DNA of 63,068 nt from an uncultured Candidatus Saccharibacteria bacterium (GTDB lineage Bacteria > Patescibacteriota > Minisyncoccia > Portnoybacterales > UBA2143), in assembly GCA_964413015.1 (NCBI GenBank), contig CAYPQZ010000005.1:1-63068 (forward strand). Reading direction: 5' to 3'. Both the position numbers and the translations under genes were made by a program. The notes under the pieces were generated by a model. That model was not told where the DNA came from. It ran no database searches and saw only the letters and a list, made by a program, of their open reading frames with translations. Shown here piece by piece: positions 6,846-27,539 of the stretch (its first letter is position 1; the number at the start of each line of letters is the position of its first letter).

Positions 6846-7001
6846 TTAATTTTTTATTAGAATTAGAATATTTTCGACCTTTATTTTTTCGCCAGATAGT
6901 TTTGAAAATTTCTTAATCTCTAAAATATCGATTTTTTGCTCGCCAGTTTCAACTTTATGAATATAAGATTGAGGCTTTTTTAGCTTATGACTGGCCGCTT
7001 A
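6846..7001 (-). pseudogene. Start-less remnant of an XRE-family helix-turn-helix gene (C-terminal half only)
   Basis: 51-codon stop-free frame ..PQSYIHKVETGEQKIDILEIKKFSKLSGEKIKV.. with no ATG/GTG/TTG. The recognition-helix pattern QSYIxKxExG is typical of XRE HTH domains. Confidence 0.35.
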
Positions 7002-11811: not shown

Positions 11812-13342
11812 GGCTTTCCGCCGAATCAGGATTCTGCTGCTGATAATCCTTGTACGGTTCTATCTCGCTCATTCTTGAGTCGAGAATTTTCTTCGCTTTT
11901 ATCCGCGATATGTTCAAAGATTGCCATTTTGAGAAATAGGAAGAATTGATATCTTGAGCGCGCCAATACAATCCGCGAGCAAAACTGCCTTTCAAATTTT
12001 CATTTAATACACCCAATATTTTGATGGTATCTGGTATAGCGTCGCTTGAAAGACTGCCTAAATAGCGAGTATCAAGCTTTCCGGTGACAGTAAACCGCTC
12101 AATATTGCGACGCGCGATAAACATATCGGGATTGAGAAAATTCATCACGACCAAAAACAGAATGATTGAAATAAAAGCTTGTAAAGCGAAAATACTTTCT
12201 CTCCCGTTTCTATAAATCTTATAGAACAACAAACAAAATACAACTGCCAGTAAAATAATAAAAGCGTGGCTGAACAGTCTCTGATCCGTGAAGCCATAGG
12301 CTTCTTCGTAGAGCGACAAACGGGTAAAAGCAGAGGCCATAATCAGGATCACTTGAAGGATTAATGCAGTGCTTAAAACTTTGAATCCGATTGCATGACC
12401 GGATTCTTTTTTAGTAATATATTTTTCCGTAAACAAAAGCAAAACCAAAGAAATGACAGCCACCGCTATTAGCTCGAAAAATCCGCGTCGAGCATATTCG
12501 GCATAAGTAAAACCTTGAGCAGAAATATTGCTCTCGCCTCCGAAAAGATAAGTTATCTGGATAAGCATAAAAATGAAAAACAGGACATTGACTAAACCGA
12601 GCAGAATAGAGCTTTCTATGCGTCCGATGTTGTAGCTCTTACTGTTTTGCTGTACGTTGATCTGGTTTTCCTGCTTTCCGAATAAATAAGAATAGGCGCC
12701 GATATAGACAAGTGTCGCTATTAAAATTAAAACAGACCTAGCGATTATTTCCGGCTCAATATTAATGTTGATCAGATCTGAAACATATTTTTTAAAAATC
12801 AGATCCGCCGAAGAAAAAAGAAGCAGGAAAACGGACAAAACCGGAATAGTCATTAGAATGCCTTTAACAACCTGCGAGAAAACATTTTGATCTTTCTTTG
12901 CTTTAAATGAAAGAAATAAATCGGATAATGTTTTAAACAAAGGACGGATAAATTTAATCGGAAGAAAGAAGACTTTTATGTAATCTTCTATCAAAAAGCT
13001 TTTTACCTTCTCGCTGAACGATATTTTGGCGATTACAAGCAACAGCAATAAAGAAGCGACTATATTAAGAAAGGTGAGCATTTCACTGGAACGGACAAAA
13101 ACCATTATACTGAAAAACATAAGAGATATCAGAAGCCAAAAAACTTCTTTATTTATTTTCTTCTTAAAGAACATGGTTAAAGTAAAAAGCCCAACAATAA
13201 TCAAAACAACATATAACAAAAAAGCGATCCCGGGAACTTTGCCGTAGAAAAAGAAATCAAAAAGCAGGCCTAAAACTAAAGATACTCCAGATATGAGGCC
13301 TGCTTTAATTAAAGTGTTGAATTGTAAATTTTGCGTATCCAT
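11804..13342 (-). CDS. Polytopic membrane protein (DUF4153/DUF4173-like)
   Basis: 512 aa with more than 10 predicted TM helices and no catalytic motif recognised. Confidence 0.55.
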   Translation of the reverse strand: MDTQNLQFNTLIKAGLISGVSLVLGLLFDFFFYGKVPGIAFLLYVVLIIVGLFTLTMFFKKKINKEVFWLLISLMFFSIMVFVRSSEMLTFLNIVASLLLLLVIAKISFSEKVKSFLIEDYIKVFFLPIKFIRPLFKTLSDLFLSFKAKKDQNVFSQVVKGILMTIPVLSVFLLLFSSADLIFKKYVSDLININIEPEIIARSVLILIATLVYIGAYSYLFGKQENQINVQQNSKSYNIGRIESSILLGLVNVLFFIFMLIQITYLFGGESNISAQGFTYAEYARRGFFELIAVAVISLVLLLFTEKYITKKESGHAIGFKVLSTALILQVILIMASAFTRLSLYEEAYGFTDQRLFSHAFIILLAVVFCLLFYKIYRNGRESIFALQAFISIILFLVVMNFLNPDMFIARRNIERFTVTGKLDTRYLGSLSSDAIPDTIKILGVLNENLKGSFARGLYWRAQDINSSYFSKWQSLNISRIKAKKILDSRMSEIEPYKDYQQQNPDSAESHE

Positions 13343-13470
13343 AAAACTTAATTTTGTTTCTCCAGCGCGGAATAATGAAGCTTTTCATAGTTTTATTTCG
13401 AATCCCAGGCGAGTTAGGGATTTTGGGCAATTTCGGCAACCCCTGATTTTTGACTTGGTTAAGCGAAAAA

Positions 13471-13578
13471 ATGGGTCTACGCGATAAAAAATATGCTTGG
13501 CTGGCCATCGTGGACAATATCAGAACTATTATCCAACAACAGAAAGAATATATTCATATTCCAGACTTGTTAAAATAA
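13471..13578 (+). repeat. R1 mosaic repeat, copy 1. The only copy with an ATG (35-codon ORF MGLRDKKYAWLAIVDNIRTIIQQQKEYIHIPDLLK)
   Basis: Aligns with 17388-17466 and 19562-19649. 8 of 11 substitutions against copy 2 fall at third codon positions of this plus-strand frame. Confidence 0.7.
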
Positions 13579-13692
13579 TTTTATAAAGCTATTTCTAAAG
13601 AACAATAGGATAACTTTTCTTAACAAGCTTTTTAGAATTTGATACATTTATAATAGAATACATATAAAAAACACCTCTACTGGTTCCGTCCT

Positions 13693-14415
13693 TTAGCGGT
13701 GTTTTTTCTTTTTATACTCTAATTTTTTTCTTAAATTATCCATAAAAATAATTTTCTCCTTTGCCGTCTTTTTTAATAATACGGAACAGGTCTTAATATA
13801 AGGACTGATTACAAATTTTAACTTATCATTCTTATATAAATATTTTACTAATGAATAAAAATCGCCATCACTACTAACAATTAAAGCTTTACTGCATTTC
13901 TCGTAATCAATCATTGCTTGCAAAACTAAATCAGCATCAACATTTCCCTTAACTTCTCCTTTATTATCAGGCAAAGTTGGAAAAATCCAACCGTAGCCTC
14001 CTTCCAAATTACTGCCTATAAATAAATCTGATGTATGGCGTTCTTTTATAAGAGGCGCTAGATATTCCATTCCTACACCAATAATTGGCTTGACTAAAGC
14101 TATTTTCATCTCTTTTCCTAAAATCACACCAACGCCGGAGCAATCTGCAAATATCCTAGCAGAAATTTTTTTAACAACTGCTTCGTTTTTAGAGCTGAAA
14201 TATACTTTATTAATTGGATTTAGAATACGATTTGGGATATTCCATTCTTTCGGTTTAATAAAACTTCCTGATGTATTATATTGAACATCTTCAGCATTTT
14301 TCTTTTTATCCAATAATAATATTTTAAGATTTGAATCTGATAATTCTCTCGTTAAACAAAGCCCTGCTGGGTCCGCCCCAACAATAATTAAATCATAATT
14401 CTCTACACTCTCCGC
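13693..14415 (-). pseudogene. Chimeric, degenerate ORF: N-terminal part of an FAD-dependent (geranylgeranyl-reductase-like) oxidoreductase fused to the C-terminal part of a NYN/LabA-like domain
   Basis: The stop-free frame extends upstream of the TTG in the ORF track to 14415 and encodes ..YDLIIVGADPAGL.. (GxGxxG with the second G replaced by D) with no canonical start. ..ARIFADCSGVG.. and ..GGYGWIFP.. are flavoprotein motifs. From ..KGNVDADLVLQAM..ALIVSSDGDFYSLVKYL.. it is NYN-like. Confidence 0.5.
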
Positions 14416-14439
14416 CTAACCGACTCATTGAGGATTTTT

Positions 14440-15090
14440 TCAATCATCTATCTTTAATAAATAAGTCTTATCTTTTTTAGTCAACCTTTTGAAAAAATCA
14501 TCACTGTTAAAAACTAAACCGTAGTTCTCTTTAACTTCAGACAAAGTCGTCTGATAAAAATTGCCAACCAACGAAGCAGTTAAATCGGATAAAAGAATAA
14601 CATCCCAGCCTTTATTAAATCCGTCTCTCAACGAAGACTCAACACAAATCGAGGTATCAACGCCGCTAAACAGTAAAGTATCAACCTTTAAAGATTTCAG
14701 CCAAAGTTCCAGCTCGGTATCCTGAAAGACAGAATCCCGTCGTTTGAATAAAACCAACTCGGATAGCTTTTCCTTAAATTGGTCTATCAGTTTAGCATCC
14801 CAGCTTCCCTTGACACAGAGAGGAATCTTTTCAATCCGCTCTCGCCTTTTCTGAGGCAGAATCTGGTGGTTTTTTTCTAATAAATCAATCCCTGATTTTT
14901 CCCTAATCGCCTTGGTAAAAATAATTGGCATCCCTAAAGATTTGGCCTGTCCATAAGCAGCAACCAGTTTGGGAACAATTTTCTGGTATTTAGCGATATC
15001 ATAACCAAGTTTATCAAAGGAACCGCCTTTAGAGACAAAGCAGTTCTGCATATCAATAATAATTAAGGCTGGTTTAATTTTATAGTCCAT
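14440..15090 (-). CDS. Isochorismatase-family cysteine hydrolase
   Basis: 216 aa, ..ALIIIDMQNCF.., ..FTKA.., ..GVDTSICVESSLRDGFNKGWDVILLSD.. Confidence 0.85.
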   Translation of the reverse strand: MDYKIKPALIIIDMQNCFVSKGGSFDKLGYDIAKYQKIVPKLVAAYGQAKSLGMPIIFTKAIREKSGIDLLEKNHQILPQKRRERIEKIPLCVKGSWDAKLIDQFKEKLSELVLFKRRDSVFQDTELELWLKSLKVDTLLFSGVDTSICVESSLRDGFNKGWDVILLSDLTASLVGNFYQTTLSEVKENYGLVFNSDDFFKRLTKKDKTYLLKIDD

Positions 15091-15216
15091 AAAGTTAAAA
15101 AGATGGCTGTTTCCCGCCCGTTAATTTTATTCTAGCAATTTTCGTTGATCTTTACAAACGAATCAATCATTATATCAAAAAGGAGAGCCAAAACTCTTCT
15201 AAAAATGAATATTATA

Positions 15217-15307
15217 GCCACTTCGGTCCAGATTAATAACAGATAAGGCCGTTAAAGGCTTTCTTGGGCTATCTAGCAGTGATAATCTACAAAAAGTATT
15301 CGGCTAA
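15217..15307 (+). repeat. Mosaic repeat copy, R2 module (start-less frame PLRSRLITDKAVKGFLGL..)
   Basis: Aligns with 8028-8095. A TAG sits immediately upstream, and the frame is stop-free to TAA 15305-15307. Confidence 0.7.
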
Positions 15308-15408
15308 GAGTTATCGCCATTCAAACTTAAAGACGCTGACAAACAATCAACGTCTTTAAAAATGAAGATTTTACCGGAAAAGATAAAAATCTTTTCTAAC
15401 TACTAATC

Positions 15409-15990
15409 CTATTGGCCGGGGATAGAAAGATCTGAGGGCTTGCCAATTCTCTCCTGAGCTTGGAAAAGCCCGTATTCAGCTGCTGCCTGAGCCACCGCAT
15501 TCATGTTATTATAAGCTGTTTGAATGGCGTTTCTAGCTTGCTCAGGGCCTACCACAGCATTTTCCTCTGCCTGTTCAGGAAGGGTCTTTGCCCATTCATT
15601 AACATGAGAAAGAGCGGAATCAACAATATCAATGTAAGCATCCTTTTCGGTTGTTGTCATCTCGCCGGACTCTCTCTGAGCATTCTCCAGTGCTTTAGTG
15701 GCCTTAAACACGCCTGAATACATAATATGTTCTTGCGAATCACTAAGTTCATCCAGAACAAAATCCAATCCATAGTTTACATAACCAAGGGCTTGATCGT
15801 CCAAAGGTCTATGAAACATAACTTCGTACATTTTGGTCAGCTGTTCCTGATTGACTTGGCAAGTATTTTGGGCAGAAGCTACCTGTCCTTGATGCATTAA
15901 AACTGCCCCAAATAAAAAACCGCCAACAAAAAAAATCAAACCAAAAATTAAGCTTATTCCTAAATGACTTTTATTATTTAATAATCTCAC
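15409..15990 (-). CDS. Membrane-anchored secreted protein with a DUF4214-like segment
   Basis: 193 aa. GTG start preceded by AAAGGAGGTGAT. TM anchor, ..FHRPLDDQALGYVNYGL.. Confidence 0.6.
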   Translation of the reverse strand: MRLLNNKSHLGISLIFGLIFFVGGFLFGAVLMHQGQVASAQNTCQVNQEQLTKMYEVMFHRPLDDQALGYVNYGLDFVLDELSDSQEHIMYSGVFKATKALENAQRESGEMTTTEKDAYIDIVDSALSHVNEWAKTLPEQAEENAVVGPEQARNAIQTAYNNMNAVAQAAAEYGLFQAQERIGKPSDLSIPGQ

Positions 15991-16149
15991 CTTATATCAC
16001 CTCCTTTCTTATTTAAATTTTATAAATTCAGTTTAAAATTATGATAATATTGTACTAATTAATTATAGCACACTTATTCCTAAAATTCTATGAAAAAAAT
16101 AAAAGGGGAAAATAAATAATCAACGCCTAATAATCAACATCCTACAAAT

Positions 16150-16224
16150 TGGCTGCCGATATTGGACGAGGTCAGAATCTCTTTATCTGATATATCTACA
16201 CTTCGGTCACAATCGGCAAAGTAA
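16150..16224 (+). repeat. Degenerate mosaic repeat copy that bridges the R1 and R2 modules (..WLPILDEVRISLSDISTLRSQSAK)
   Basis: GGCTGCCGATATTGGACGAGGTCAGAA aligns with GGCTGGCCATCGTGGACAACGTTAGAA of R1. TATATCTACACTTCGGTC aligns with both the R1 tail and the R2 head. Confidence 0.5.
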
Positions 16225-16329
16225 TAATAAAGCTAGTCCCTTTATCCTTGCCTTCACTTTTGATAAAATTGATACAATTATTAGTATCTTCTTTGATATC
16301 AATCTTTAGTTTGATTTTAGGATATTTGT

Positions 16330-16731
16330 TCATTGTTTAAGCTTCTTTAATAAATCATCTCTGTCCATCTTAATTTTTGTCAGCTTGGGCCAGGTATTTA
16401 ATCCATCATTTTTAAATCTGGGCAGTAAATGAAAATGAAAATGAAATACAGATTGCTCTCCGTCAATTCCACTGGCATGCATTAAATTAGCTCCAGTAGC
16501 ATTGATTTTCTTTCGGTAGAGTAAAGTTAGTTTTTTGGCGACTTTAACCACCTTGGATAAAACACCTTCTGGAATATCATATAAATCAGCGTAATGTTTT
16601 TTAGGCGCAATCAAAGTATGCCCGTAAACTTCTACCTTTTGAGGCAAAAAACAAATTACATCTTTATCTTCATAAACAATCTTAGCCGGTTCTTCTTTAT
16701 TTATGATTTTACAGAATATGCAATCTCTCAT
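16330..16731 (-). CDS. HIT-family (histidine triad) nucleotide hydrolase/transferase
   Basis: 133 aa, ..CIFCKI.., histidine triad ..HFHFHLLPR.. Confidence 0.85.
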   Translation of the reverse strand: MRDCIFCKIINKEEPAKIVYEDKDVICFLPQKVEVYGHTLIAPKKHYADLYDIPEGVLSKVVKVAKKLTLLYRKKINATGANLMHASGIDGEQSVFHFHFHLLPRFKNDGLNTWPKLTKIKMDRDDLLKKLKQ

Positions 16732-16745
16732 AATTAAAATGGATA

Positions 16746-17369
16746 TTACTCAACAATGATAACTTCTCCATCTTTGAGCGCTTTGAACAACATTTTATTT
16801 TCTATCATATATTCTACGGCTTTTTTCGCGCTTTCTGCTTCTGCATGGTCTGACTGATAATGAGGGATTACAGAATAATTAAGAATTCCTAGGCCGTCCC
16901 AGGCAATCTCCGATTGATCGCCATAGGGCTTTATATTCGGGTCATCCACTAGATTCATACCTTTTAAGGTTGTTGACAACACACAAACTCCAGCGCTATA
17001 TCCCCCGTATAGAATATTGTCTTTTTTAACTAACTTTTTCAAAATCTCATCAAAACCGCTTAATTTCATAGCCTGTCTAAGCACAAAAAGATTGCCGCCT
17101 CTGACCCAAATCACGCCGAATTCCGACATCCTTTCTTCTAATTCGCCTTGTTTATTGAAATAGTCACGTAAATCTACTATCTCGATATCTAAACCCAGTT
17201 CTTCAAGTTGTTCTATGTCAGATTGTTCGCTTTTCTTTCTTCTTTCCAAATCATCTGAAAAATCAAGCGCATTGGAAATATAGGCGGTTTTTTTATTTTC
17301 GCTTGGTAATAGCTCTTTTAACTTATCGAGTTCGTTTCCTAACTTGTATGAAGATAAGTAAAATTTCAT
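16746..17369 (-). CDS. Peptidase E-like protein (S51 / type 1 glutamine amidotransferase-like)
   Basis: Start moved to MKFYLSSYKL (ATG 17369), because the longer ORF in the track runs into repeat copy 2. ..VRGGNLFVLRQAM.., ..GGYSAGVCVLS.. Confidence 0.7.
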   Translation of the reverse strand: MKFYLSSYKLGNELDKLKELLPSENKKTAYISNALDFSDDLERRKKSEQSDIEQLEELGLDIEIVDLRDYFNKQGELEERMSEFGVIWVRGGNLFVLRQAMKLSGFDEILKKLVKKDNILYGGYSAGVCVLSTTLKGMNLVDDPNIKPYGDQSEIAWDGLGILNYSVIPHYQSDHAEAESAKKAVEYMIENKMLFKALKDGEVIIVE

Positions 17370-17387
17370 ATTATTAATTAAATTTAA

Positions 17388-17466
17388 GCTGGCCATCGTG
17401 GACAACGTTAGAACCATTATCCAACGACAGAAAGATTATATCTATATTCCTGATTTAAGTCCGTAA
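17388..17466 (+). repeat. R1 mosaic repeat, copy 2 (start-less frame LAIVDNVRTIIQRQKDYIYIPDLSP)
   Basis: See 13471-13578. Similarity begins exactly at GCTGGCC. TAA at 17464-17466, 2 nt from the convergent TPR gene stop. Confidence 0.7.
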
Positions 17467-17468
17467 GC

Positions 17469-18077
17469 TTAATTTATTAATCTATCCAACATCAATTCAG
17501 CAAGCTTTGACTTTTTAGCTAATCTTTTTAAAATCCTTAAATACTCTTCTCTCTTTTCTTTATCATTTAATTTTCTATTAATAATTATTAAATTGGAAAG
17601 AGGGATAGCTGATTTTTCTTTGTTTCTACTTAAAAGAAATGCTTTCCTGTAATAAGCAATAGCCAATTTGTCTTTTTTCAATCTTCTGTAAATATTCCCC
17701 AAATCATTATAAGTGCTAAAATTTCTCTTTAAATTATGAGCTTTTTTATAATATTTCAAGGCCTCTGACATTTTCTCTTGATGCATCAAAACTGTACCCA
17801 TTCCTCGAAATGTTTCTTGTTTATTTTTTTCGTTCTTGATGTTTTTTCTAAAATACTTCTTTGCCTTATCTTGGTATTGACTTCTTAGGGATTTATCACT
17901 AATTTTCAAAGCCCATTGATCATAAAGCCAGCCCAATAGAAGATATATCTTAAATATTTCTTCGCTTTTTTTATCAACCTGTTTAAAATATTTCTCTAAT
18001 AATACCTTAGCTTCTTGGTATTTCTGCTTATTTAATAAGTTATTATATTTTTCAAAAATTATCTTTCTTTCTCTCAT
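17469..18077 (-). CDS. Tetratricopeptide-repeat protein
   Basis: 202 aa with repeated ..A..YY.KA...-type TPR helices (..ALKYYKKAHNL.., ..AIAYYRKAFLL..). Confidence 0.7.
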   Translation of the reverse strand: MRERKIIFEKYNNLLNKQKYQEAKVLLEKYFKQVDKKSEEIFKIYLLLGWLYDQWALKISDKSLRSQYQDKAKKYFRKNIKNEKNKQETFRGMGTVLMHQEKMSEALKYYKKAHNLKRNFSTYNDLGNIYRRLKKDKLAIAYYRKAFLLSRNKEKSAIPLSNLIIINRKLNDKEKREEYLRILKRLAKKSKLAELMLDRLIN

Positions 18078-18087
18078 ATTTAAAATT

Positions 18088-18122
18088 ATATAAAAAAGCC
18101 GTGATATTATTATACCACGGCC
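18088..18122 (-). terminator. Intrinsic terminator directly after the precursor-peptide gene
   Basis: Minus strand: GCCGTGG-loop-CACGGC followed by TTTTTTATAT. Confidence 0.65.
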
Positions 18123-18159
18123 GATTCAAAAGGTTAATAATCCGCAAAAGAACAATTTT

Positions 18160-18339
18160 CTAATCCACATCGCTATCAGTATCATTCCAGCCGCCAGTCT
18201 GAGTCTCTGTAATCGTATGATTGGCCTCAAAAGTGCCATTATCCAATAGAAACATCTGCAGTTTGGGATCATAACGACCATTAAATTCAACCTGTTTAAC
18301 ATCTTCTGCGAACTTAGCCAAAAAAGGTACTGTATTCAT
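18160..18339 (-). CDS. Putative graspetide (omega-ester RiPP) precursor peptide, 59 aa
   Basis: ATG 18339 preceded by GGGGTGAG, 14 nt after the ATP-grasp stop. Leader has PFLAKFAE. C-terminal core is TITETQTGGWNDTDSDVD. Confidence 0.65.
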   Translation of the reverse strand: MNTVPFLAKFAEDVKQVEFNGRYDPKLQMFLLDNGTFEANHTITETQTGGWNDTDSDVD

Positions 18340-18352
18340 TTTCTCACCCCTT

Positions 18353-19327
18353 TTAATTTTTAATGTGTTTTGCAAATAACGAAATAAGCGTATCTGTTAT
18401 CGGTAAATTAGTTAAATGCTCTATCCAATACCATTGACCATTAGGATTTACTTCCAGAAAAACATACTTATTATCTGGCGTCAAAATCATATCAAATGCT
18501 CCGAATTTCAAACCAGCAATTTCAAGAAATTCAACCAACCTTTCCTTAATTGCAACGGGTATTTCATATGGATAATGTGGCACATTGTCAAAATCATACC
18601 TTCGCCAATCATCCTTTGTTTGCGAAGATTTTTGAGATTCTATCGCGCAACTGAAAACACTATCTTCTATAACTGTAATTCTCAATTCCAATTTTTTCGG
18701 AATACAAGATTGAAAGAGTGTTGGGAGAAATTTTATAGATTCTAAATCTTCAAGATCTTTTGAGGTCAGCTTATGGGTATAGATATTTTTCAGTCGCTTT
18801 CCCTCTTTGATATGGCCGACTGAAACAGCCTTTGATATAATTTCTCCGTATTCCTCCTTAAATCCGTAAACCGCATTAGGGTTATTAGTCACCAGAGTAG
18901 GAGGTATTTCCAAGCCAATTTCTGTTGCCAAATTCAATTGATATAACTTATTATCAATCTCTTTGTTTCGAAAAGGATTATTTAGCCAAAACCTTTTCTC
19001 TAATAATCGCCAAATGTTACTTAAAATAAAATCAGATTCTCTTGATACAAACTCCACAATAGAAGAATCTATGATATCAGAATGAATATTTGGTTTTTCA
19101 GGCCTACGATACCAAACAGCAGAAATATTTTTTACGAGATCTATTATCCTTTCTTCGGCCTGAAGTTTTATTTTCCTGACTCCACTCCCATCAATCTTCA
19201 ATTCAAGAATATGCGAAATCAAAAGATCTTCCATATTCCATCGGAAAAACGGCAAATCTAATTCACGCAACTTTTTAATAACAATATCTGTGTGAGCATC
19301 TAATTTATTGCTCAAAATCAGCAACAT
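18353..19327 (-). CDS. ATP-grasp RiPP maturase-like ligase (MdnB/MdnC - MvdC/MvdD type)
   Basis: About 324 aa starting MLLILSNKLDAHTDIVIKKLRELDLPFFRWNMEDL, with ATG 19327 six nt after GGGAGGTGA. The ORF track starts at GTG 19336, inside that SD. C-terminal ..YVFLEVNPNGQWYWIE.. Confidence 0.75.
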   Translation of the reverse strand: MLLILSNKLDAHTDIVIKKLRELDLPFFRWNMEDLLISHILELKIDGSGVRKIKLQAEERIIDLVKNISAVWYRRPEKPNIHSDIIDSSIVEFVSRESDFILSNIWRLLEKRFWLNNPFRNKEIDNKLYQLNLATEIGLEIPPTLVTNNPNAVYGFKEEYGEIISKAVSVGHIKEGKRLKNIYTHKLTSKDLEDLESIKFLPTLFQSCIPKKLELRITVIEDSVFSCAIESQKSSQTKDDWRRYDFDNVPHYPYEIPVAIKERLVEFLEIAGLKFGAFDMILTPDNKYVFLEVNPNGQWYWIEHLTNLPITDTLISLFAKHIKN

Positions 19328-19502
19328 CTTTTTCACCTCCCTTCATCTGAATTCTCTTTCGTTATTTTGACTTTCAAAGAACGATTACGATTCAAATAAC
19401 CTAATGTCCACTATTAATATTAAAATATACTTATTTACAAATTTTGTCAAATAAATTTGTATACCAAATCGCCCCACCATTTAACTCGTTGTTACTCAAA
19501 AA

Positions 19503-19649
19503 GTTCTAACGTCCACACTCCCTATTAAAAACAACCGCATTAAATAGCGGTTATTTTATTTGCTGGCCATCGTGGACAACGTTAGAACCATCATTCAGCG
19601 ACAGAACGAACATATTTATATTCCCAACCTAACACTAACTGCCATCTAG
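19503..19649 (+). repeat. R1 mosaic repeat, copy 3, with its upstream arm (frame LLAIVDNVRTIIQRQNEHIYIPNLTLTAI)
   Basis: GTTCTAACGTCCAC (19503-19516) is the inverted complement of GTGGACAACGTTAGAAC (19572-19588). Inner hairpin AACCGC/GCGGTT at 19533-19552. 8 of 11 substitutions against copy 2 are at third positions. Confidence 0.7.
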
Positions 19650-19767
19650 TCTGTTCTCATCACCTGTTTTCCCCATTTCTTGGGCATTTTTTCAATAAGC
19701 ATATCTTAACGCAGTCCGTTGATGCCTCTCGGTCGGGCTTTTTATTCGGGAAATGAAATATATGATG

Positions 19768-20508
19768 CTACCGAAGCGTCCATCCTCCATCAACAATAAT
19801 TGTCTGACCTGTCATGTAATTAGACTTATCAGAGGCCAAAAAGACTACAACATTAGCAATATCTTTTATTGTACCCATTCTTGCCAAAGGAATCGCCGCT
19901 ATCGTTTGTTTTTTAACCTCTTCGTTTGATGTTTCGTCTGCTCCCGGAGTATCAATAGCGCCCGGGGCAACCGCATTCACATTTATTTTCTGAGGAGCCA
20001 ATTCCAGGGCCAAAGCTCTTATCATACTGCTCACTCCGCCCTTTGAGGCGCAATAATGGGTCAAGGATGGAAAGCCAATGAGAGCCGCAATTGAAGAGAT
20101 ACTGACAATCTTACTTCCTGACTTCATAATTTTTACCGCTGCCTGCGAACATAAGAAAACGCTTTTTAAGTTTACGTCTAAAACCTTATCCCAATCTTTC
20201 TCGGTCATATTCAAAAAGGGAACAAATGGGAAAACACCAGCGTTATTTACAAGAATATCTAATTGACTAAATTTTTCCATTGTTTTGGCAATCAAATTAT
20301 CTACATCTTCTTTTTGGGAAACATCACAACTAACTGCCAAGCCCTTAACTCCCATACTCTCTATTTCTTCAACAACTTTTTCGCAATCCTTTTGATTAAT
20401 ATCACTGACAACAACGTTGCATCCTTCTTTTGCCAAGGCGATTACTATTCCGTAACCAATGCCTCTTCTGGCACCGGTCACAATTGCTACTTTATTTTTT
20501 AATTGCAT
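19768..20508 (-). CDS. SDR-family oxidoreductase (FabG-like 3-oxoacyl reductase)
   Basis: Start moved to MQLKNKVAIVTGARRGIGYG (ATG 20508), because the longer ORF overlaps tRNA-Gln. ..NNAG.., ..YCASKGG.. catalytic motif. Confidence 0.85.
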   Translation of the reverse strand: MQLKNKVAIVTGARRGIGYGIVIALAKEGCNVVVSDINQKDCEKVVEEIESMGVKGLAVSCDVSQKEDVDNLIAKTMEKFSQLDILVNNAGVFPFVPFLNMTEKDWDKVLDVNLKSVFLCSQAAVKIMKSGSKIVSISSIAALIGFPSLTHYCASKGGVSSMIRALALELAPQKINVNAVAPGAIDTPGADETSNEEVKKQTIAAIPLARMGTIKDIANVVVFLASDKSNYMTGQTIIVDGGWTLR

Positions 20509-20536
20509 ATTAATTATTTTTTTTAATTTTAACCTG

Positions 20537-20607
20537 CTGCCGGGCAGGGATTCGAACCCCGATAACATCCTCCAAGGGGATGCGTCCTACCGTTAGACGA
20601 CCCGGCA
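20537..20607 (-). tRNA. tRNA-Gln (anticodon TTG), with an unusual anticodon loop CCTTGGA
   Basis: Hand fold: acceptor TGCCGGG/CCCGGCA (U1:A72, discriminator G73 as in bacterial tRNA-Gln), D arm GTCT-AACGGTA-GGAC, anticodon stem CATCC/GGATG, T arm CGGGG-TTCGAAT-CCCTG. Confidence 0.75.
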
Positions 20608-20610
20608 ATA

Positions 20611-21702
20611 CTATTCCTGAGAACACTCCACTACTGCCAATTCCAGGGGCAGTTGGGGAAAATCGGCCGACTTGATTTCGTTGCCGGCCTGAATAAAAAG
20701 ATGAATCGCTCTAATTAAATCCGGCTGGGAAAACTTTTTGCCTTGGTTAATTATGGTGTCTAATTGTTCTTTAGTCAATTCAACCGCGACTAATTTGGAC
20801 AAATCGGGATTAACTTTTAAAATCAGCATTTTCCTTAAATAATTGACCAGCGATTTGGCAAACTGGGTTAAATCATGCCCCTGGGCAATAATCTGATTGA
20901 TATGTGAAATAGCCGCTCCGTTATTATTTTCAATTAAGTAATCGGCCATATCTTGAACCGTTTTGATATCCGTTACCCCCAAGATTGCTTGGACTTCTTC
21001 CAAGGTGATTTCTTTATCTTCCACGGAAATAATCTGGCCTAATAAGCTTTCACTGTCGCGAACCGAGCCGTCAGCGTTTAACGCGACCAACTCTAGAGCC
21101 GGCTTGGCTATCTTTACTTTTTCCTGCTTAGCAATCCAGGCCAGCCGGCCAACAATTTTATCTAAAGTTAGCTTATGGAAATCGAACCGCTGACAGCGGG
21201 AAATTATGGTCTGGGGAACTTTATGAATTTCTGTAGTCGCCAAAACAAAAATGGCGTGAGCCGGCGGTTCTTCCAATGTCTTAAGTAAAGCGTTAAAGGC
21301 CTCTCTAGTCAATTGGTGGCATTCGTCGATAATAAAAACCTTGTATTTTAAGCTGTTGGGGCTAAATTTAATCCCTTCACGCAATTCTCTGATTTCATCA
21401 ATTCCCCGGTTAGAGGCGGCATCAATTTCAATTAAATCCAGGGATTTGCCCTGATTGATTTCTTGACAGGCCGGACACTGGTTGCAGGGCTCAAACTTTT
21501 TCAATTTTTGGCAATTAACCGCTTTGGCCAATAAACGGGCAACGGTGGTTTTGCCGGTCCCTCGAGGTCCGGCGAACAAATAGGCATGAGCCACTTTCCC
21601 CATAACCAAAGCATTAGTTAAGGTTTGAACAATATGCTCCTGATTAACCACTTCTGCAAAGGTTTTCGGCCGATATTTACGATACAAAACTAAATTAGAC
21701 AT
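20611..21702 (-). CDS. dnaX: DNA polymerase III subunit gamma/tau (short form)
   Basis: 363 aa, ..FAGPRGTGKTT.., zinc module CQKLKKFEPCNQCPACQ, ..IIDECHQLT.., ..SRCQRF.. Confidence 0.9.
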   Translation of the reverse strand: MSNLVLYRKYRPKTFAEVVNQEHIVQTLTNALVMGKVAHAYLFAGPRGTGKTTVARLLAKAVNCQKLKKFEPCNQCPACQEINQGKSLDLIEIDAASNRGIDEIRELREGIKFSPNSLKYKVFIIDECHQLTREAFNALLKTLEEPPAHAIFVLATTEIHKVPQTIISRCQRFDFHKLTLDKIVGRLAWIAKQEKVKIAKPALELVALNADGSVRDSESLLGQIISVEDKEITLEEVQAILGVTDIKTVQDMADYLIENNNGAAISHINQIIAQGHDLTQFAKSLVNYLRKMLILKVNPDLSKLVAVELTKEQLDTIINQGKKFSQPDLIRAIHLFIQAGNEIKSADFPQLPLELAVVECSQE

Positions 21703-25037: not shown

Positions 25038-27539
25038 TTATTTTACTTCCATATCTGAACTGGCGGATGTTGAGGTTGCCACCGGCGGAGTAGCTAACTT
25101 CCAGCGCTCGGCAATTTCATGGTCAACCAAACTTTTCTCCCGTCCATATTCCAAACGGGATAATTCTTTGATAACCCTGGAGTTTTCCGAATTTCCCTGT
25201 TCCGGCGGCTCAGTCATCAGATTAAACGGTTGAGAGGTCTCGTTGTTAACCATCAATTTAATATAGGCGTTAAAATTATCAACGTTAATCAGGTCCTGTT
25301 TATTAAAAACCGGCTCAAACTGCTTAACCAAAAATTCGGCATCTTCGGCCCCGACTCGGAAGCTTGCCATTGAACCGACGTTGCCAAAGACCGCCTTTTG
25401 AATTTCCTCGGTAAGCTGGCCGATAAACTGATGAGCAATAGTCAGGCAGAGATGATACTTGCGCGCTTCGGAAAGAATCGTGGCAATACTGTTAGTGGCA
25501 AAATTCTGGAACTCGTCCATATAGAGGTAGAAATCATTGCGCTCTTCTTCCGGCAAATCAACCCTGGAAAAGCTGGCCATTAAGATTTTGCCGGTAACAA
25601 TCAACCCCAGCAAAGCGCTGTTGATATCCCCTAGCCGCCCCTTGCTTAAATTAACCAACAATATCTTTCGTTCGTCCATAATCTGTCGGAAATTAAGCGA
25701 GGTCTCCGACTGACCGATTATCGGCCGCATATAGTCATTGGCGATAAAAACGTTGAATTTGGAAGTGATGTACGGAACGATATTTTGCAAAGCCGCCTCG
25801 CCGCCTGCTTTTTCGGCTTCTTTTTCCCAAAAATCTCTGACCACGATATTCTGGCATTTAGTTAACAATCTTTTTCTGAATTCTGCGTCCGCCATCACTT
25901 TAGGGACCTCCATTAAAGTAAACTTCTTGCTTGGGTCATCCATTAACAGTAAAAGCGCGTTGCGGGTATACTGTTCAAACATCGGCCCGCCGGTTTGCTT
26001 TAAATCATAGAGCTTGTCAAAAATGCTCATTAGTTCATTAACCGCAAAAGTTTTTTGCTCCGGATAATTGACGTCGTAATCAAGCATATTTAAACCAAGC
26101 GGCCTCTCTAAATCAGCCGGATTCAGGACCATTACATCTTTAGTCCGTTCTTCGGGAATCACTCTGAGAATTCTTTCAACCAAATCCCCGTGCGGATCTA
26201 AAAGCCCGACTCCATGGCCTTTCTGAATGTCCTGAATAACCAAATTGCCTAGAAAGACCGACTTGCCGGTGCCAGTTTGCCCAATAACGTAAAGATGGCG
26301 CCGCCGATCGCTGTCTTGCGCGTAAATTTTTGTTTCTACCCCCCGATAGAGATTCCTGCCCAGAACTATCCCATGTTTAGGCATACTCGCCGGCGGAGCA
26401 GCCGATTTCGCTTTAAGGAATTTGACATTCGGCGTTTCAATTGAGCTGGTTGGGAAATGGAATAAACTGGTCAGCTCTTCAGTCCCCAAAAGCATTTTCT
26501 GGTTTCTGTTGAAAAGCCGGAAAGAAAAATTGTAAATTAACTTTTTTAAAGCTCGCCTTTTGATCCGGACTGATTTTAATTGATTCAAATTAGCCGAACT
26601 GAACTGAGTAAAAGCTCCTTCCAAATGGCCTAACAGTTGGTCGGCCCGCTCTTGGCTATCAGCCGAAACCAGTAATCTCACATTAACATCATAACCGGCC
26701 TTGCTGGCCTTATTGTCTATGGCTCTAATAACTTCTTCCTGCCCCGGAGTAATTGCCGAATTCTTATTTTCCAATTCCTGCTCTTTTTTCTGAAATGATT
26801 TAGATCCCCTTTTTAGACTTTTGATTATTTTACTCAAAGCATTGCCGCCGACAGCTGATCGGGCTTGATAAAAACTCTTGCCCCTTTGCATCTCTTTGGC
26901 AATTTCATGGCTTTGCTTTTGCCAGCTTGATAAAGTCGGGCGAAAAGCAATTTGAATAGCCGCGCCTTCGCCGGTCTCTTTAAGCTTGCTTAAAGTATTG
27001 GCAATCTCATTGAGAGGATCGGTTTCCAGCTCCTGATAAGTTTTAAAAGGCAAATGGTATGTCTTGGCCAGCTTTAAATAGGCGCCGGCAGACGCGCCTT
27101 GGGCATTGAAAATATTGTAGTCCTCCGCTTTTGAAATTGAGGCCTCCGGATAAAAACCATGAATCTGCTTTTCAACCACGCTCTCATAACGGCTAGGCAA
27201 GGCCAGGTAGAAAGCGATTTCTTCGCCTTGTTCAGGAGTGGCGATTTCAAAAACCAGATGAGGCTGGCCATAAATAAAAACATCCTTAGTTTCCTTAATG
27301 TTGCTAAAACTGCTGTAAAGCTGTTCCATCGCTGAAATGATTTCCTTAGCGCTTTTAGGCGCTTCGCTTTCTTCCTTTTTAACTTTCTTGGGCAGAGAAA
27401 TTAAAAATAGGCTCATATTTAAAGCCCTGGTTATCCGCCCTCTATTCTTAACCCGACGGATAAAAATCAACCCGCCGACAATAATAATCGCCGGAGCCAG
27501 CAAAACAAGTACCAATAAAAAAATTTGATTAAAGGTCAT
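25038..27539 (-). CDS. VirD4/TraD/TraG-like coupling-protein-type P-loop ATPase with N-terminal membrane anchor
   Basis: 833 aa. Walker A ..YVIGQTGTGKSVFL.., ..LLDPHGDL.., Walker B ..LYMDEFQNFAT.., ..LTIAHQFIGQL.. Confidence 0.7.
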   Translation of the reverse strand: MTFNQIFLLVLVLLAPAIIIVGGLIFIRRVKNRGRITRALNMSLFLISLPKKVKKEESEAPKSAKEIISAMEQLYSSFSNIKETKDVFIYGQPHLVFEIATPEQGEEIAFYLALPSRYESVVEKQIHGFYPEASISKAEDYNIFNAQGASAGAYLKLAKTYHLPFKTYQELETDPLNEIANTLSKLKETGEGAAIQIAFRPTLSSWQKQSHEIAKEMQRGKSFYQARSAVGGNALSKIIKSLKRGSKSFQKKEQELENKNSAITPGQEEVIRAIDNKASKAGYDVNVRLLVSADSQERADQLLGHLEGAFTQFSSANLNQLKSVRIKRRALKKLIYNFSFRLFNRNQKMLLGTEELTSLFHFPTSSIETPNVKFLKAKSAAPPASMPKHGIVLGRNLYRGVETKIYAQDSDRRRHLYVIGQTGTGKSVFLGNLVIQDIQKGHGVGLLDPHGDLVERILRVIPEERTKDVMVLNPADLERPLGLNMLDYDVNYPEQKTFAVNELMSIFDKLYDLKQTGGPMFEQYTRNALLLLMDDPSKKFTLMEVPKVMADAEFRKRLLTKCQNIVVRDFWEKEAEKAGGEAALQNIVPYITSKFNVFIANDYMRPIIGQSETSLNFRQIMDERKILLVNLSKGRLGDINSALLGLIVTGKILMASFSRVDLPEEERNDFYLYMDEFQNFATNSIATILSEARKYHLCLTIAHQFIGQLTEEIQKAVFGNVGSMASFRVGAEDAEFLVKQFEPVFNKQDLINVDNFNAYIKLMVNNETSQPFNLMTEPPEQGNSENSRVIKELSRLEYGREKSLVDHEIAERWKLATPPVATSTSASSDMEVK

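What the first reader, a model, noticed from the sequence alone, without database searches (positions are those of the whole stretch)
18088..19336. Minimal graspetide-like RiPP module: MdnC/MvdC-type ATP-grasp ligase plus a 59-aa precursor with a TxTxTxT-GGWN-DxDxDxD core
Seen in sequence:
- An ATP-grasp ORF of about 324 aa has the N-terminus MLLILSNKLDAHTDIVIKKLRELDLPFFRWNMEDL.
- 14 nt after its stop comes a small ORF preceded by GGGGTGAG (ATG 18339): MNTVPFLAKFAEDVKQVEFNGRYDPKLQMFLLDNGTFEANHTITETQTGGWNDTDSDVD.
- A GC-stem hairpin plus T-run (18088-18122) closes the unit.

Established knowledge: microviridin-class (graspetide / omega-ester peptide) ligases are ATP-grasp enzymes of about 325 aa. 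They dock on a PFFARFL-type leader helix and link Thr/Ser/Lys side chains to Asp/Glu side chains.

Inference:
- PFLAKFAE is the leader recognition motif.
- The last 18 residues have four alternating Thr, a Gly-Gly-Trp-Asn turn, then four alternating Asp. They would fold as a beta-hairpin carrying a ladder of up to four Thr-Asp esters.
- I do not recognise this exact core.
- No protease, acetyltransferase or exporter is adjacent.
- The host looks like a reduced CPR-type genome, where to my knowledge RiPPs are rarely described.
Basis: partly seen in the sequence, partly recalled or inferred. Interest (0 to 1): 0.78.

Follow-up and report, generated by a model that had tools for sequence, protein, structure and literature searches.

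The report
Graspetide peptide gene cluster with TPR partner
This is a real three-gene cluster (cross-linking enzyme, 59-residue precursor peptide, helical-repeat TPR protein) predicted to make a small ester-stapled hairpin peptide in what is probably an ultra-small CPR bacterium; it is a previously unlisted member of a known natural-product class, not a new kind of system.

Summary
A 324-aa ATP-grasp gene (19327-18353, minus strand) is followed 13 nt later by a 59-aa ORF (18339-18160), then a hairpin with a T-run (18122-18088).

- **Ligase.** By sequence and predicted fold it is a graspetide macrocyclase (MdnC, CdnC, MdnB, PruB, PsnB), not RimK or GshB.
- **Small ORF.** It is under purifying selection and belongs to a modest family of precursors: 28 sequences collected here, 26 distinct cores.
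- **Family motifs.** The leader reads PF(L)xxFxE...GxY(D/N)xxxQ. The core reads T-x-x-E-T-x-T-GG-(W/H/Y/F)-(N/G)-D-T-D-(S/T)-D.
- **Ladder.** The two inner Thr/Asp rungs are invariant. The outer rungs vary from 2 to 5. This window has a perfect 4/4 ladder.
- **Not a minimal two-gene unit.** A 202-aa TPR protein (18077-17469) travels with ligase and precursor in three different gene orders. The hairpin sits between precursor and TPR gene in all ten loci examined, so it looks like a post-precursor attenuator rather than the end of the module.
- **Prior art.** CPR graspetide clusters with TPR proteins (Makarova 2022) and four-ester Thr-Asp hairpin ladders (amycolimiditide, albusimiditide) are published. 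This exact precursor family was not found in the published sets I could search.

Verdict: new member of a known kind, of moderate interest.

The parts
19422..19450 (-). Promoter-like site (TTGACA-17-TATTTT) about 95 nt upstream of the ligase start. It lies just after the terminator-like hairpin (19533-19552) of the upstream SDR gene.
   Evidence: This is a consensus match only; the number of promoter-like sites in the region is not above the shuffled expectation.
18353..19327 (-). Graspetide ATP-grasp macrocyclase, 324 aa.
   Evidence: Pfam PF21068 MvdD pre-ATP-grasp domain, E 3e-10. NCBIfam TIGR04187, TIGR04185 and TIGR04184 at E 4e-71 to 5e-60, against RimK at 1.6e-10. PDB sequence hits 5ig8, 7m4s, 5ig9, 7mgv, 9bou, 7drm. 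AF2 model pLDDT 92; the Foldseek top 32 hits are all graspetide macrocyclases, with TM about 0.8 for the best-matching chains. Invariant ELRITV, DWRR and EVNPNGQW motifs.
18160..18339 (-). Precursor peptide gene, 59 aa plus stop.
   Evidence: Homologues P0001-P0003. 21 proteins at E<=1e-3 among 1.84 billion representatives, about 16 of them precursor-sized peptides. Purifying selection.
18304..18327 (-). Leader recognition motif PFLAKFAE (residues 5-12). A second conserved leader block, G21-x-Y23-D24-x3-Q28, follows.
   Evidence: Alignment of family precursors. Matches the published Phhx(1,2)h signature.
18163..18216 (-). Predicted core TITETQTGGWNDTDSDVD (residues 42-59). Donors are T42, T44, T46, T48; the loop is G49-G50-W51-N52; acceptors are D53, D55, D57, D59. 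There is no Lys, so only ester links are possible.
   Evidence: Sequence and the register table of 28 family members.
18088..18122 (-). Stem-loop plus T-run between the precursor stop and the TPR start. It is probably a partial terminator or transcript-stabilising hairpin. A TTAACC-17-TATAAT promoter-like site with an extended -10 overlaps it (18137-18109).
   Evidence: An equivalent hairpin plus T-run is present at the same position in all 10 loci checked.
17469..18077 (-). 202-aa cytoplasmic TPR protein, the conserved third gene of the module.
   Evidence: Pfam TPR_12, TPR_1, TPR_2. Co-located with ligase and precursor in three gene orders. Narrow family of 14 hits. AF2 pLDDT 93.8, 11 helices, generic TPR superhelix matches. 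Invariant GW.YDQ, RG..TV(L)MHQ and (Y)NDLGNIY motifs.

Best explanation
This is a three-gene graspetide biosynthetic module, probably in a CPR/Patescibacteria-type genome.

**Proposed mechanism**
- The 59-aa precursor docks through its N-terminal PFLAKFAE helix, and probably the GxYDxxxQ block, on the leader-binding domain of the ATP-grasp ligase.
- The ligase phosphorylates Asp side-chain carboxylates of the C-terminal core with ATP.
- The hydroxyl of a Thr located N-terminal to that Asp then attacks, forming a side-chain-to-side-chain omega-ester.
- This repeats from the inside outwards.

**Predicted product**
- A very compact beta-hairpin stapled by nested, register-matched esters.
- T48-D53 closes a four-residue GGWN loop. 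This is the same number of enclosed residues as the inner ring of plesiocin.
- T46-D55 follows, and in this sub-clade also T44-D57 and T42-D59. That gives up to four losses of 18 Da.
- No lactam is possible because the core has no Lys.

**Other components**
- The hairpin plus T-run directly after the precursor gene most likely attenuates or stabilises the transcript.
- The TPR protein, a soluble five-repeat superhelix, is a functional part of the module. It is most likely a peptide-binding protein acting either as a partner or scaffold of the ligase, or as a binding/immunity protein for the acidic, Trp-containing product.
- No dedicated protease, exporter or tailoring enzyme is conserved in the locus.

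**Status of the steps**
- Shown: gene presence, family membership of the ligase, conservation and selection on the precursor, synteny with the TPR gene.
- Inferred: the chemistry, the linkage map, the TPR role, and the bioactivity (a protease-inhibitor-like loop is the default expectation for this class).
For: **Ligase**
- RiPP ATP-grasp HMMs score E 4e-71 to 5e-60 against RimK at 1.6e-10.
- Best PDB sequence hits are MdnB, AMdnB, MdnC, CdnC, PruB and PsnB.
- Foldseek puts MdnC bound to MdnA first (E 1.7e-30, TM 0.83) and RimK/LysX/ArgX only at about 1e-13.

**Precursor**
- 17 synonymous against 4 non-synonymous codon changes versus L162.
- Leader and core are conserved across 28 family members.
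- T(-1)/D(+3) and T(-3)/D(+5) are present in 28 of 28 members.
- Complete ladders of 3/3, 4/4 and 5/5 occur. Rung 3 is lost on both sides together (V with G) in 5 members.
- Donor and acceptor run lengths correlate (Spearman 0.42, p 0.035, not corrected for phylogeny).

**Published precedent**
- Equal-spacing nested Thr-Asp ester hairpins are established for amycolimiditide and albusimiditide (T19-D32, T17-D34, T11-D40, T9-D42).
- TTxxxxEE nested rings are established for plesiocin.

**TPR gene**
- It is adjacent in the orders ligase-precursor-TPR (window, L001, L162-L171, L178), precursor-TPR-ligase (L002/L172, L094) and precursor-ligase-TPR (L096, L103).
- TPR association with CPR graspetide loci was noted in PMC8939145.
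- Partner-protein-dependent graspetide synthetases exist (MirB/MirC, PMC13097080).
Against: - No chemistry was or could be tested here.
- Only two rungs are invariant. Rung 3 is one-sided in 9 of 28 members, so outer links may follow another register, or not form at all.
- The correlation of run lengths is weak and is not phylogenetically corrected.
- A 72%-identical TPR gene (L181/L182) sits without ligase or precursor within 5 kb on either side. The TPR protein can therefore persist alone. This argues against an exclusively biosynthetic role and leaves its function open.
- L093 carries a family-type precursor and ligase but no TPR hit within 3 kb.
- The TPR fold matches are generic.
- No leader-cleavage site, protease or exporter is identifiable, so the mature product and its destination are unknown.
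- The taxonomic assignment of the window rests on relatives only (L001 is a Saccharibacteria MAG at 61% ligase identity).
Confidence: 0.78

Rival explanations
1. The module is the two-gene unit the first reader proposed (ligase plus precursor, closed by a terminator). The TPR gene is then an unrelated neighbour.
For: A terminator-like hairpin separates the precursor from the TPR gene, and a -10-like TATAAT precedes the TPR gene. An orphan TPR homologue exists without ligase or precursor. L093 has ligase plus precursor without a TPR gene nearby.
Against: The TPR gene stays adjacent through three different gene orders and down to 43% ligase identity, while all other flanking genes change. In the L172 order it lies between precursor and ligase. 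The TPR family is tiny (14 hits in 5.8 billion proteins). Three of the four TPR homologues looked up were informative, and two of those three sit in such loci.
Confidence: 0.12
2. The TPR protein is an immunity or sequestration protein, or a receptor, for the mature peptide. Under this reading it is not a biosynthetic partner. The ligase alone makes the product.
For: An orphan TPR gene is retained with its own upstream leader after apparent loss of ligase and precursor (L181/L182), which is the pattern of orphan immunity genes. The hairpin plus a possible own promoter would allow independent expression. TPR domains are general peptide-binding modules, for example the KLC2 TPR bound to a Trp-acidic peptide among the fold matches. 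All characterised single-ligase graspetides except rosaritide need no partner.
Against: There is no signal peptide or membrane segment, so it could only act in the cytoplasm. In L172-type loci the TPR gene is embedded between precursor and ligase. Nothing is known of any toxicity of the peptide. This is a sub-hypothesis of the best explanation rather than a contradiction of it.
Confidence: 0.35
3. The peptide is cross-linked, but not as a four-rung nested ladder. Only the two invariant inner esters (plus perhaps T42 to a distal Asp) form, or the links are interlocked or offset as in rosaritide or microviridin.
For: Only T(-1)/D(+3) and T(-3)/D(+5) are invariant. Position -5 is V, I, F, Y or E in 15 of 28 members, while T(-7) is kept in most. 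Unpredicted connectivities keep being found (rosaritide). The opposite face carries a conserved E(-4) facing S/T(+6), which the ladder model leaves unused.
Against: In this sub-clade and in P0161, P0165, P0171 and P0179, donors and acceptors are matched exactly in number and register (4/4, 5/5). Equal-spacing pairing correctly predicted albusimiditide.
Confidence: 0.3
4. The ATP-grasp is a housekeeping RimK/GshB/LysX-type ligase and the small ORF is a spurious or unrelated peptide.
For: JGI's automatic name for homologues is 'glutathione synthase/RimK-type ligase-like ATP-grasp enzyme'. There are weak RimK and GshB HMM hits.
Against: RimK scores 40.8 bits against a cut-off of 143. RiPP maturase models score 157-240 bits. 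The fold search separates them by 16 orders of magnitude in E-value. The small ORF is conserved and under purifying selection. A separate RimK-type gene exists elsewhere in the window (6985-7857).
Confidence: 0.01

Closest known systems
CPR 'Branch 1' graspetide loci of Makarova et al. 2022 (PMC8939145), e.g. precursor cluster 5505 of candidate division CPR1
   Same: Both have an ATP-grasp plus a short precursor with a P-hydrophobic-hydrophobic leader and a G.YD...Q block. The core alternates Thr then Asp (ATATVTVSTNGYDGDID). TPR proteins occur in the loci and the hosts are CPR. The window core fits their signature TxxxTx(6-10)Dx(1-4)D. L082, whose precursor is of the cluster 5505 type, sits in the clade next to this one in my ligase tree.
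   Different: The T-GG-(W/H/Y/F)-(N/G)-D-T-D precursor family is absent from their 174 precursor-cluster files as far as these are held. No Saccharibacteria is listed in their Branch 1. The neighbouring clade carries DUF6624 rather than the TPR gene. They left the TPR role 'unclear'.
Amycolimiditide and albusimiditide (graspimiditides, group 13)
   Same: A single ATP-grasp installs four Thr-Asp omega-esters with equal spacing on both strands. This gives a stem-loop hairpin ladder with 22-membered stem rings from i/i+2 spacing.
   Different: Those are actinobacterial. They have a PIMT-type O-methyltransferase that makes an aspartimide at a DG site in a larger loop. Here there is no methyltransferase, no DG, a four-residue loop, and a TPR protein instead. 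The ligase is closer in sequence to MdnB, MdnC and CdnC than to the one solved actinobacterial graspetide ligase, PruB of Streptomyces.
Plesiocin / PsnB (group 2)
   Same: Nested hairpin-like bicyclic core. The inner ring encloses four residues (TTxxxxEE against T-GGWN-D). There is a single ligase.
   Different: Plesiocin uses adjacent TT/EE with Glu acceptors, in four repeats per precursor, with a different leader. PsnB is only a remote sequence match (E 4e-11).
Microviridin system (MdnA/B/C, MvdC/D; group 1)
   Same: PFFARFL-like leader helix. The ligase fold is closest to MdnC bound to MdnA.
   Different: No TxKxPSDx(D/E)(D/E) core, no Lys or lactam, one ligase rather than two, and no GNAT or ABC transporter. 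The scores are below the MvdC and MvdD equivalog cut-offs.
Rosaritide MirB/MirC (partner-protein-dependent graspetide synthesis, PMC13097080)
   Same: A strictly co-occurring non-enzymatic protein sits next to ligase and precursor.
   Different: MirC is a SurA/PpiC-like chaperone-domain protein, not a TPR protein. Dependence is demonstrated there and untested here.

Membership tests
Graspetide (omega-ester/amide RiPP) biosynthetic gene cluster | ATP-grasp macrocyclase of the MdnB/MdnC/PsnB type with an N-terminal leader-binding (pre-ATP-grasp) domain | tested here: met
   PF21068 above its gathering score. TIGR04187/04185/04184/04192 at E 4e-71 to 5e-46. PDB sequence hits. Predicted fold matches MdnC, CdnC, AMdnB, MdnB, PruB and PsnB first.
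Graspetide (omega-ester/amide RiPP) biosynthetic gene cluster | Adjacent short precursor with a conserved N-terminal leader motif (PFFARFL-like / Phhx(1,2)h) | tested here: met
   PFLAKFAE at residues 5-12, conserved as PF(L/P/I)xxFxE in the family. Motif definition from PMC8939145.
Graspetide (omega-ester/amide RiPP) biosynthetic gene cluster | C-terminal core with Thr/Ser/Lys donors placed N-terminal to Asp/Glu acceptors | tested here: met
   T42, T44, T46, T48 then D53, D55, D57, D59. The two inner pairs are invariant in 28 of 28 relatives.
Graspetide (omega-ester/amide RiPP) biosynthetic gene cluster | Side-chain omega-ester or omega-amide cross-links in the product | not testable with these tools
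   Needs co-expression and mass spectrometry.
Microviridin (group 1) | Core TxKxPSDx(D/E)(D/E), two ligases (ester and amide), GNAT acetyltransferase | tested here: not met
   The core lacks the motif and any Lys. There is one ligase and no GNAT within 10 kb on either side. MvdC scores 234 against a cut-off of 425, and MvdD 203 against 475.
Graspimiditide (amycolimiditide / fuscimiditide / albusimiditide) | PIMT-type O-methyltransferase in the cluster and an Asp-Gly aspartimidylation site in the loop | tested here: not met
   No methyltransferase among the genes within 10 kb on either side. The loop is GGWN and there is no DG. Definition.
Plesiocin-type (group 2) | Repeated TTxxxxEE core motifs | tested here: not met
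   A single core with alternating T.T.T.T / D.D.D.D. Motif.
CPR Branch 1 graspetide loci (Makarova 2022) | Phhx(1,2)h leader, core TxxxTx(6-10)Dx(1-4)D, frequent TPR or 'cluster 23' neighbours, ligase in that tree branch | tested here: inconclusive
   The pattern is met (T44-x3-T48-x6-D55-x1-D57) and the TPR gene is present. Branch membership was only approximated: L082, which has a cluster 5505-type precursor, is in the neighbouring clade of my NJ tree. Their ligase sequences were not aligned directly.
Partner-protein-dependent graspetide systems (Carter 2026) | Ligase activity or stability depends on a co-encoded partner protein | not testable with these tools
   Only co-occurrence is shown. 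An orphan TPR gene argues for caution.
Housekeeping ATP-grasp ligases (RimK / GshB / LysX) | Scores above family cut-offs; closest fold | tested here: not met
   RimK 40.8 bits against 143.4, GshB 18.2 against 299, LysX 17.9 against 275.6. Foldseek E about 1e-13 against 1e-30 for graspetide ligases.

The most novel reading that the evidence does not exclude
The module defines an undescribed graspetide group centred on CPR/Patescibacteria. A soluble TPR protein would be an obligatory third component: either a new type of ligase partner that presents the acidic Trp-containing core, or a cognate immunity or binding protein that can survive as an 'orphan'. The product would be the tightest ester 'zipper' hairpin known, with 4-5 consecutive i/i+2 Thr-Asp rungs closing a four-residue loop. 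Episymbiotic ultra-small bacteria might use it in dealing with their hosts or competitors.
Probability: 0.25. Interest if true: 0.7.

Novelty: new member of a known kind. Interest (0 to 1): 0.42.

Why it matters
**For graspetide chemistry.** The peptide offers a minimal 18-residue core, naturally variable from 2 to 5 rungs. That allows a study of how one ATP-grasp enzyme sets register and order in a stapled beta-hairpin, and it could serve as a scaffold for stable hairpin display.

**For biology.** It adds a clean, compact three-gene case to the few natural-product clusters known in reduced CPR-type genomes. It also gives a concrete handle, the strictly associated TPR protein and its orphan copies, on a question left open in the 2022 survey: what do TPR proteins do in graspetide loci?

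**Limits.** It does not open a new class. The enzyme family, the leader logic, the ladder topology and the presence of such clusters in CPR are all published.

Tried and rejected
1. **Published supplements.**
   - The core and leader strings (TETQTGG, GGWND, GGHND, GGHGD, PFLAKF, ETDTGG and others) were searched in the supplements of Makarova 2022 and Carter 2026. No match was found. Several large files are stored truncated, so absence is not absolute.
   - Carter groups 27 and 42, the ones said to be rich in candidate phyla, have unrelated representative precursors.
2. **Naming the organism.** There is no rRNA in the window, only two tRNAs. Cluster look-ups gave no names. The contig look-up gave only sample ids. 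CPR/Saccharibacteria is therefore inferred from relatives.
3. **TPR fold search.** It returned only generic TPR superhelices, with no specific functional homologue.
4. **Neighbouring genes.**
   - The S51 peptidase two genes downstream was considered as the leader or Asp-specific protease. It was rejected as a module part because no relative keeps it.
   - The upstream SDR is likewise rejected: it is separated by a terminator-like hairpin and a promoter-like site, and no relative's locus has an SDR next to the ligase.
5. **L179/L180 TPR loci.** The contigs are too short (124-166 nt upstream) to tell whether a ligase precedes the TPR gene.
6. **Complex prediction.** Multimer prediction of ligase with precursor, or TPR with precursor, is not possible with the single-chain tool.
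7. **Literature.** A search for graspetide plus tetratricopeptide found nothing.
Full report
**1. What is in the sequence**

On the minus strand the region reads as follows.
- A terminator-like hairpin of the upstream SDR gene lies at 19533-19552.
- A promoter-like TTGACA-17-TATTTT lies at 19450-19422.
- An SD (GGGAGGTG) and an ATG at 19327 open a 324-aa ORF that ends at 18353.
- Thirteen nucleotides containing AAGGGGTGAG follow. An ATG at 18339 then opens a 59-aa ORF, MNTVPFLAKFAEDVKQVEFNGRYDPKLQMFLLDNGTFEANHTITETQTGGWNDTDSDVD, with its stop at 18162-18160.
- A stem-loop at 18122-18097 is followed by a T-run.
- An ATG at 18077 opens a 202-aa ORF ending at 17469.
- An S51-family peptidase gene (17417-16746) follows 51 nt later.

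Two things were missed: a gene starts 20 nt after the T-run, and a peptidase lies two genes downstream.

**2. The ligase**

- Pfam finds only the MvdD pre-ATP-grasp domain (PF21068, above its cut-off).
- NCBIfam ranks four RiPP ATP-grasp maturase models first:
  - TIGR04187: 240 bits
  - MvdC: 234 bits
  - MvdD: 203 bits
  - grasp-with-spasm: 157 bits
- RimK (41 bits), GshB and LysX come far behind. All RiPP models score below their curated cut-offs, so the enzyme is in the superfamily but is an equivalog of none.
- The best solved relatives by sequence are MdnB (1e-52), AMdnB, MdnC, CdnC, PruB and PsnB.
- An AlphaFold2 model built on 21 homologues has mean pLDDT 92.
- Its 32 best Foldseek matches in the PDB are all graspetide macrocyclases, headed by MdnC bound to its precursor (E 1.7e-30, TM 0.83). 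RimK, LysX and ArgX appear only at about 1e-13.
- Motifs shared by graspetide ligases (WYRRP, ELRITV, DWRR, EVNPNGQW) are invariant among the closest 21 homologues.

**3. The small ORF is a real, conserved precursor**

- Three near-identical peptides exist in the protein collection.
- Homologous peptides lie next to ligases of 84%, 61%, 55%, 53-49% and 43% identity, and in a further clade at about 38-39% identity.
- Between the window and L162, 18 of 22 differences are at third codon positions (17 synonymous against 4 non-synonymous codons).
- Against the Saccharibacteria-MAG locus L001 the core shows 8 synonymous and 2 non-synonymous changes. The leader shows 10 and 17.
- A profile search of 1.84 billion representative proteins finds 21 proteins at E<=1e-3. 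About 16 of these are 57-91-aa precursors of the same design.
- The family consensus is M-x2-3-PF(L/P/I)-x2-F-x-E ... G-x-Y-(D/N)-x3-Q ... T-x-(T/V/I)-E-T-x-T-G-G-(W/H/Y/F/T)-(N/G/H)-D-(T/V)-D-(S/T/Q)-(D/G)-x-(D...).
- The leader fits the published Phhx(1,2)h signature. That signature is thought to play the role of microviridin's PFFARFL helix.

**4. How many rungs?**

I anchored 28 family members on the T-GG turn and read donors at -1, -3, -5... and acceptors at +3, +5, +7....
- The two inner pairs are present in all 28.
- The window's sub-clade, P0161 and P0165 have exact 4/4 ladders.
- P0171 and P0179 have 5/5, and P0163 has 3/3.
- In five members rung 3 is missing on both sides together (V with G).
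- In nine members rung 3 is missing on one side only.
- Donor and acceptor run lengths correlate modestly (Spearman 0.42, p 0.035, 26 distinct cores, no phylogenetic correction).

This supports a nested, register-matched hairpin. It also shows that only two esters are family-wide. The four-ester prediction applies to this peptide and remains an inference. There is no Lys in the core, so only esters can form.

Published precedents:
[quoted passage not shown] The last has T19-D32, T17-D34, T11-D40 and T9-D42, with 22-membered rings for i/i+2 spacing.
- The innermost ring here, T-GGWN-D, encloses four residues, like the inner ring of plesiocin's TTxxxxEE.
- On the other face of the putative hairpin, E(-4) and S/T(+6) are also well conserved. 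The ladder model does not use them, and I have no explanation for this beyond strand packing.

**5. The module has a third gene**

In every relative where enough sequence is available, a homologue of the 202-aa TPR protein is adjacent. It occurs in three different orders:
- ligase-precursor-TPR (window, L001, L162-L171, L178);
- precursor-TPR-ligase (L002/L172/L173, L094);
- precursor-ligase-TPR (L096, L103).

Supporting observations:
- All other neighbours differ between loci.
- In an NJ tree of 153 ligases, the ligases with this precursor type and the TPR gene form one clade plus an adjacent small clade.
- The TPR family is narrow, with 14 hits in 5.8 billion clustered proteins. It carries invariant GW.YDQ, RG..TV(L)MHQ and (Y)NDLGNIY motifs.
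- It has no hydrophobic N-terminus.
- It is predicted with pLDDT 93.8 as 11 helices. These match generic TPR superhelices only.

Two observations limit the conclusion.
- L093 has a family-type precursor and ligase but no TPR gene within 3 kb.
- A 72%-identical TPR gene in L181/L182 has no ligase or precursor within 5 kb on either side. It does keep the same upstream sequence (TTTTTATATAAATTTTCAAATATG) as the window and L162.

The TPR protein is thus linked to the module but can persist without it. That pattern fits a binding or immunity protein at least as well as a biosynthetic partner. Makarova et al. listed TPR proteins among graspetide-associated families with 'unclear' role. Carter et al. 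showed that a different kind of partner, MirC, can be essential for a graspetide ligase.

**6. The hairpin**

A stable stem-loop followed by a T-run lies directly after the precursor stop, before the next gene, in the window and in all nine relatives checked. This includes the L172 order, where the TPR gene and the ligase lie downstream of it. It is conserved in position, not in sequence.

That is the usual arrangement of a partial terminator or 3' stabiliser after a RiPP structural gene. It is not evidence for the end of the module. A -10-like TATAAT overlaps or follows it in several loci, so separate transcription of the TPR gene is possible.

**7. Context and host**

- The window has no rRNA.
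- The named relatives of the ligase are a Saccharibacteria MAG (61%), Parcubacteria, Pacebacteria, Portnoybacteria and a 'Patescibacteria group' MAG.
- The same contig has been assembled from several metagenomes.
- CPR origin is therefore likely but not shown.
- The module sits in a stretch of lower G+C (0.34-0.37 at 12-21 kb, against about 0.40-0.46 through 21-63 kb). It lies next to a tRNA (20537-20607).
- In the 84%-identical relative, the module lies between different genes: FtsE/FtsX upstream, and RimK-type and NYN genes downstream.
- This suggests that the three genes move as a unit.
- No protease, exporter or tailoring enzyme is conserved with the module. The S51 peptidase and the SDR are specific to this genome.

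**8. Comparison with what is known**

- Graspetide clusters in CPR bacteria were reported in 2022. Their 'Branch 1' has Phhx(1,2)h leaders, the core signature TxxxTx(6-10)Dx(1-4)D and TPR neighbours. The window core fits that pattern.
- Their cluster 5505 precursor (CPR1 bacterium...ATATVTVSTNGYDGDID) is of the L082 type, which is the neighbouring clade in my tree.
- The T-GG-aromatic-N-D-T-D family itself is not among their 174 precursor clusters, as far as the files are held. It is also not among the group representatives of the 2026 RODEO survey.
- The ladder topology is known from amycolimiditide and albusimiditide. Those have a methyltransferase and an aspartimide, which are absent here.

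I therefore file this as a new member (probably a new precursor group) of a known kind. Two features are worth an experiment: the strictly associated TPR protein, and the naturally variable number of rungs.

**9. Verdict**

The module is real and correctly recognised as a graspetide cluster. Interest 0.42.

Noticed in passing
window 12000-21000; tRNA at 20537-20607 (-): The module lies in a stretch of lower G+C (0.34-0.37, against about 0.40-0.46 through 21-63 kb), bounded by a tRNA gene. The tRNA overlaps the N-terminal extension of the longest SDR ORF (19768-20568), so the true SDR start is probably a later ATG. In the 84%-identical relative (L161/L162) the three genes sit between entirely different neighbours. 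This suggests the module is mobile or lies in a variable island.
   Followed up: partly
window 16746-17417 (-): A peptidase family S51 gene (dipeptidase E / cyanophycinase family, Asp-specific enzymes) lies 51 nt downstream of the TPR gene, next to a very Asp-rich peptide. It is not conserved in any related locus, so it is probably coincidental, but it was not tested.
   Followed up: partly
L181 / L182 5001-5609: An orphan TPR homologue (72% identical to the window's) has no ligase or precursor within 5 kb on either side but keeps the same upstream sequence. Its neighbours are two radical SAM genes, a 52-aa ORF, a methyltransferase and an acetyltransferase. This may be another peptide-modification island.
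   Followed up: partly
window 18163-18216 (precursor residues 45 and 56) and family alignment: On the face of the putative hairpin opposite the Thr/Asp ladder, E(-4) and S/T(+6) are conserved and would face each other. This would be an acceptor N-terminal to a donor, an orientation not seen in characterised graspetides. It remains unexplained.
   Followed up: no
window 18109-18137 (-): A TTAACC-17-TATAAT promoter-like site with an extended -10 TG overlaps the post-precursor hairpin. TATAAT-like boxes also follow the equivalent hairpins in L162, L168, L171 and L172. The TPR gene may therefore have its own promoter.
   Followed up: partly
window 6985-7857 (-): A separate RimK-type ATP-grasp gene is 65% identical to the gene that directly follows the TPR gene in L162/L163.
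   Followed up: no
window about 25038-27539 (-) (mapped from L174 1789-4290): An 833-aa DUF87 / TrwB / T4SS-DNA-transfer-like ATPase, with DUF5663 and small unknown ORFs, lies upstream of a ClpB-like AAA protein. This may be a secretion or conjugation-type apparatus.
   Followed up: no
L167 1216-1722: A truncated duplicate of the ligase N-terminal domain (168 aa, PF21068) lies just upstream of the full-length ligase. The gene caller missed the precursor there because it overlaps the end of the ligase ORF.
   Followed up: no
L083 41-985 and 2283-2783; L168 1935-2456: In the neighbouring ligase clade a DUF6624 protein follows the ligase and an rve-type integrase (IS element) precedes the cluster. 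L168 has both the TPR gene and DUF6624. DUF6624 is the family flagged in the 2026 RODEO survey as frequently co-occurring with graspetide groups 18, 20, 23 and 42.
   Followed up: partly
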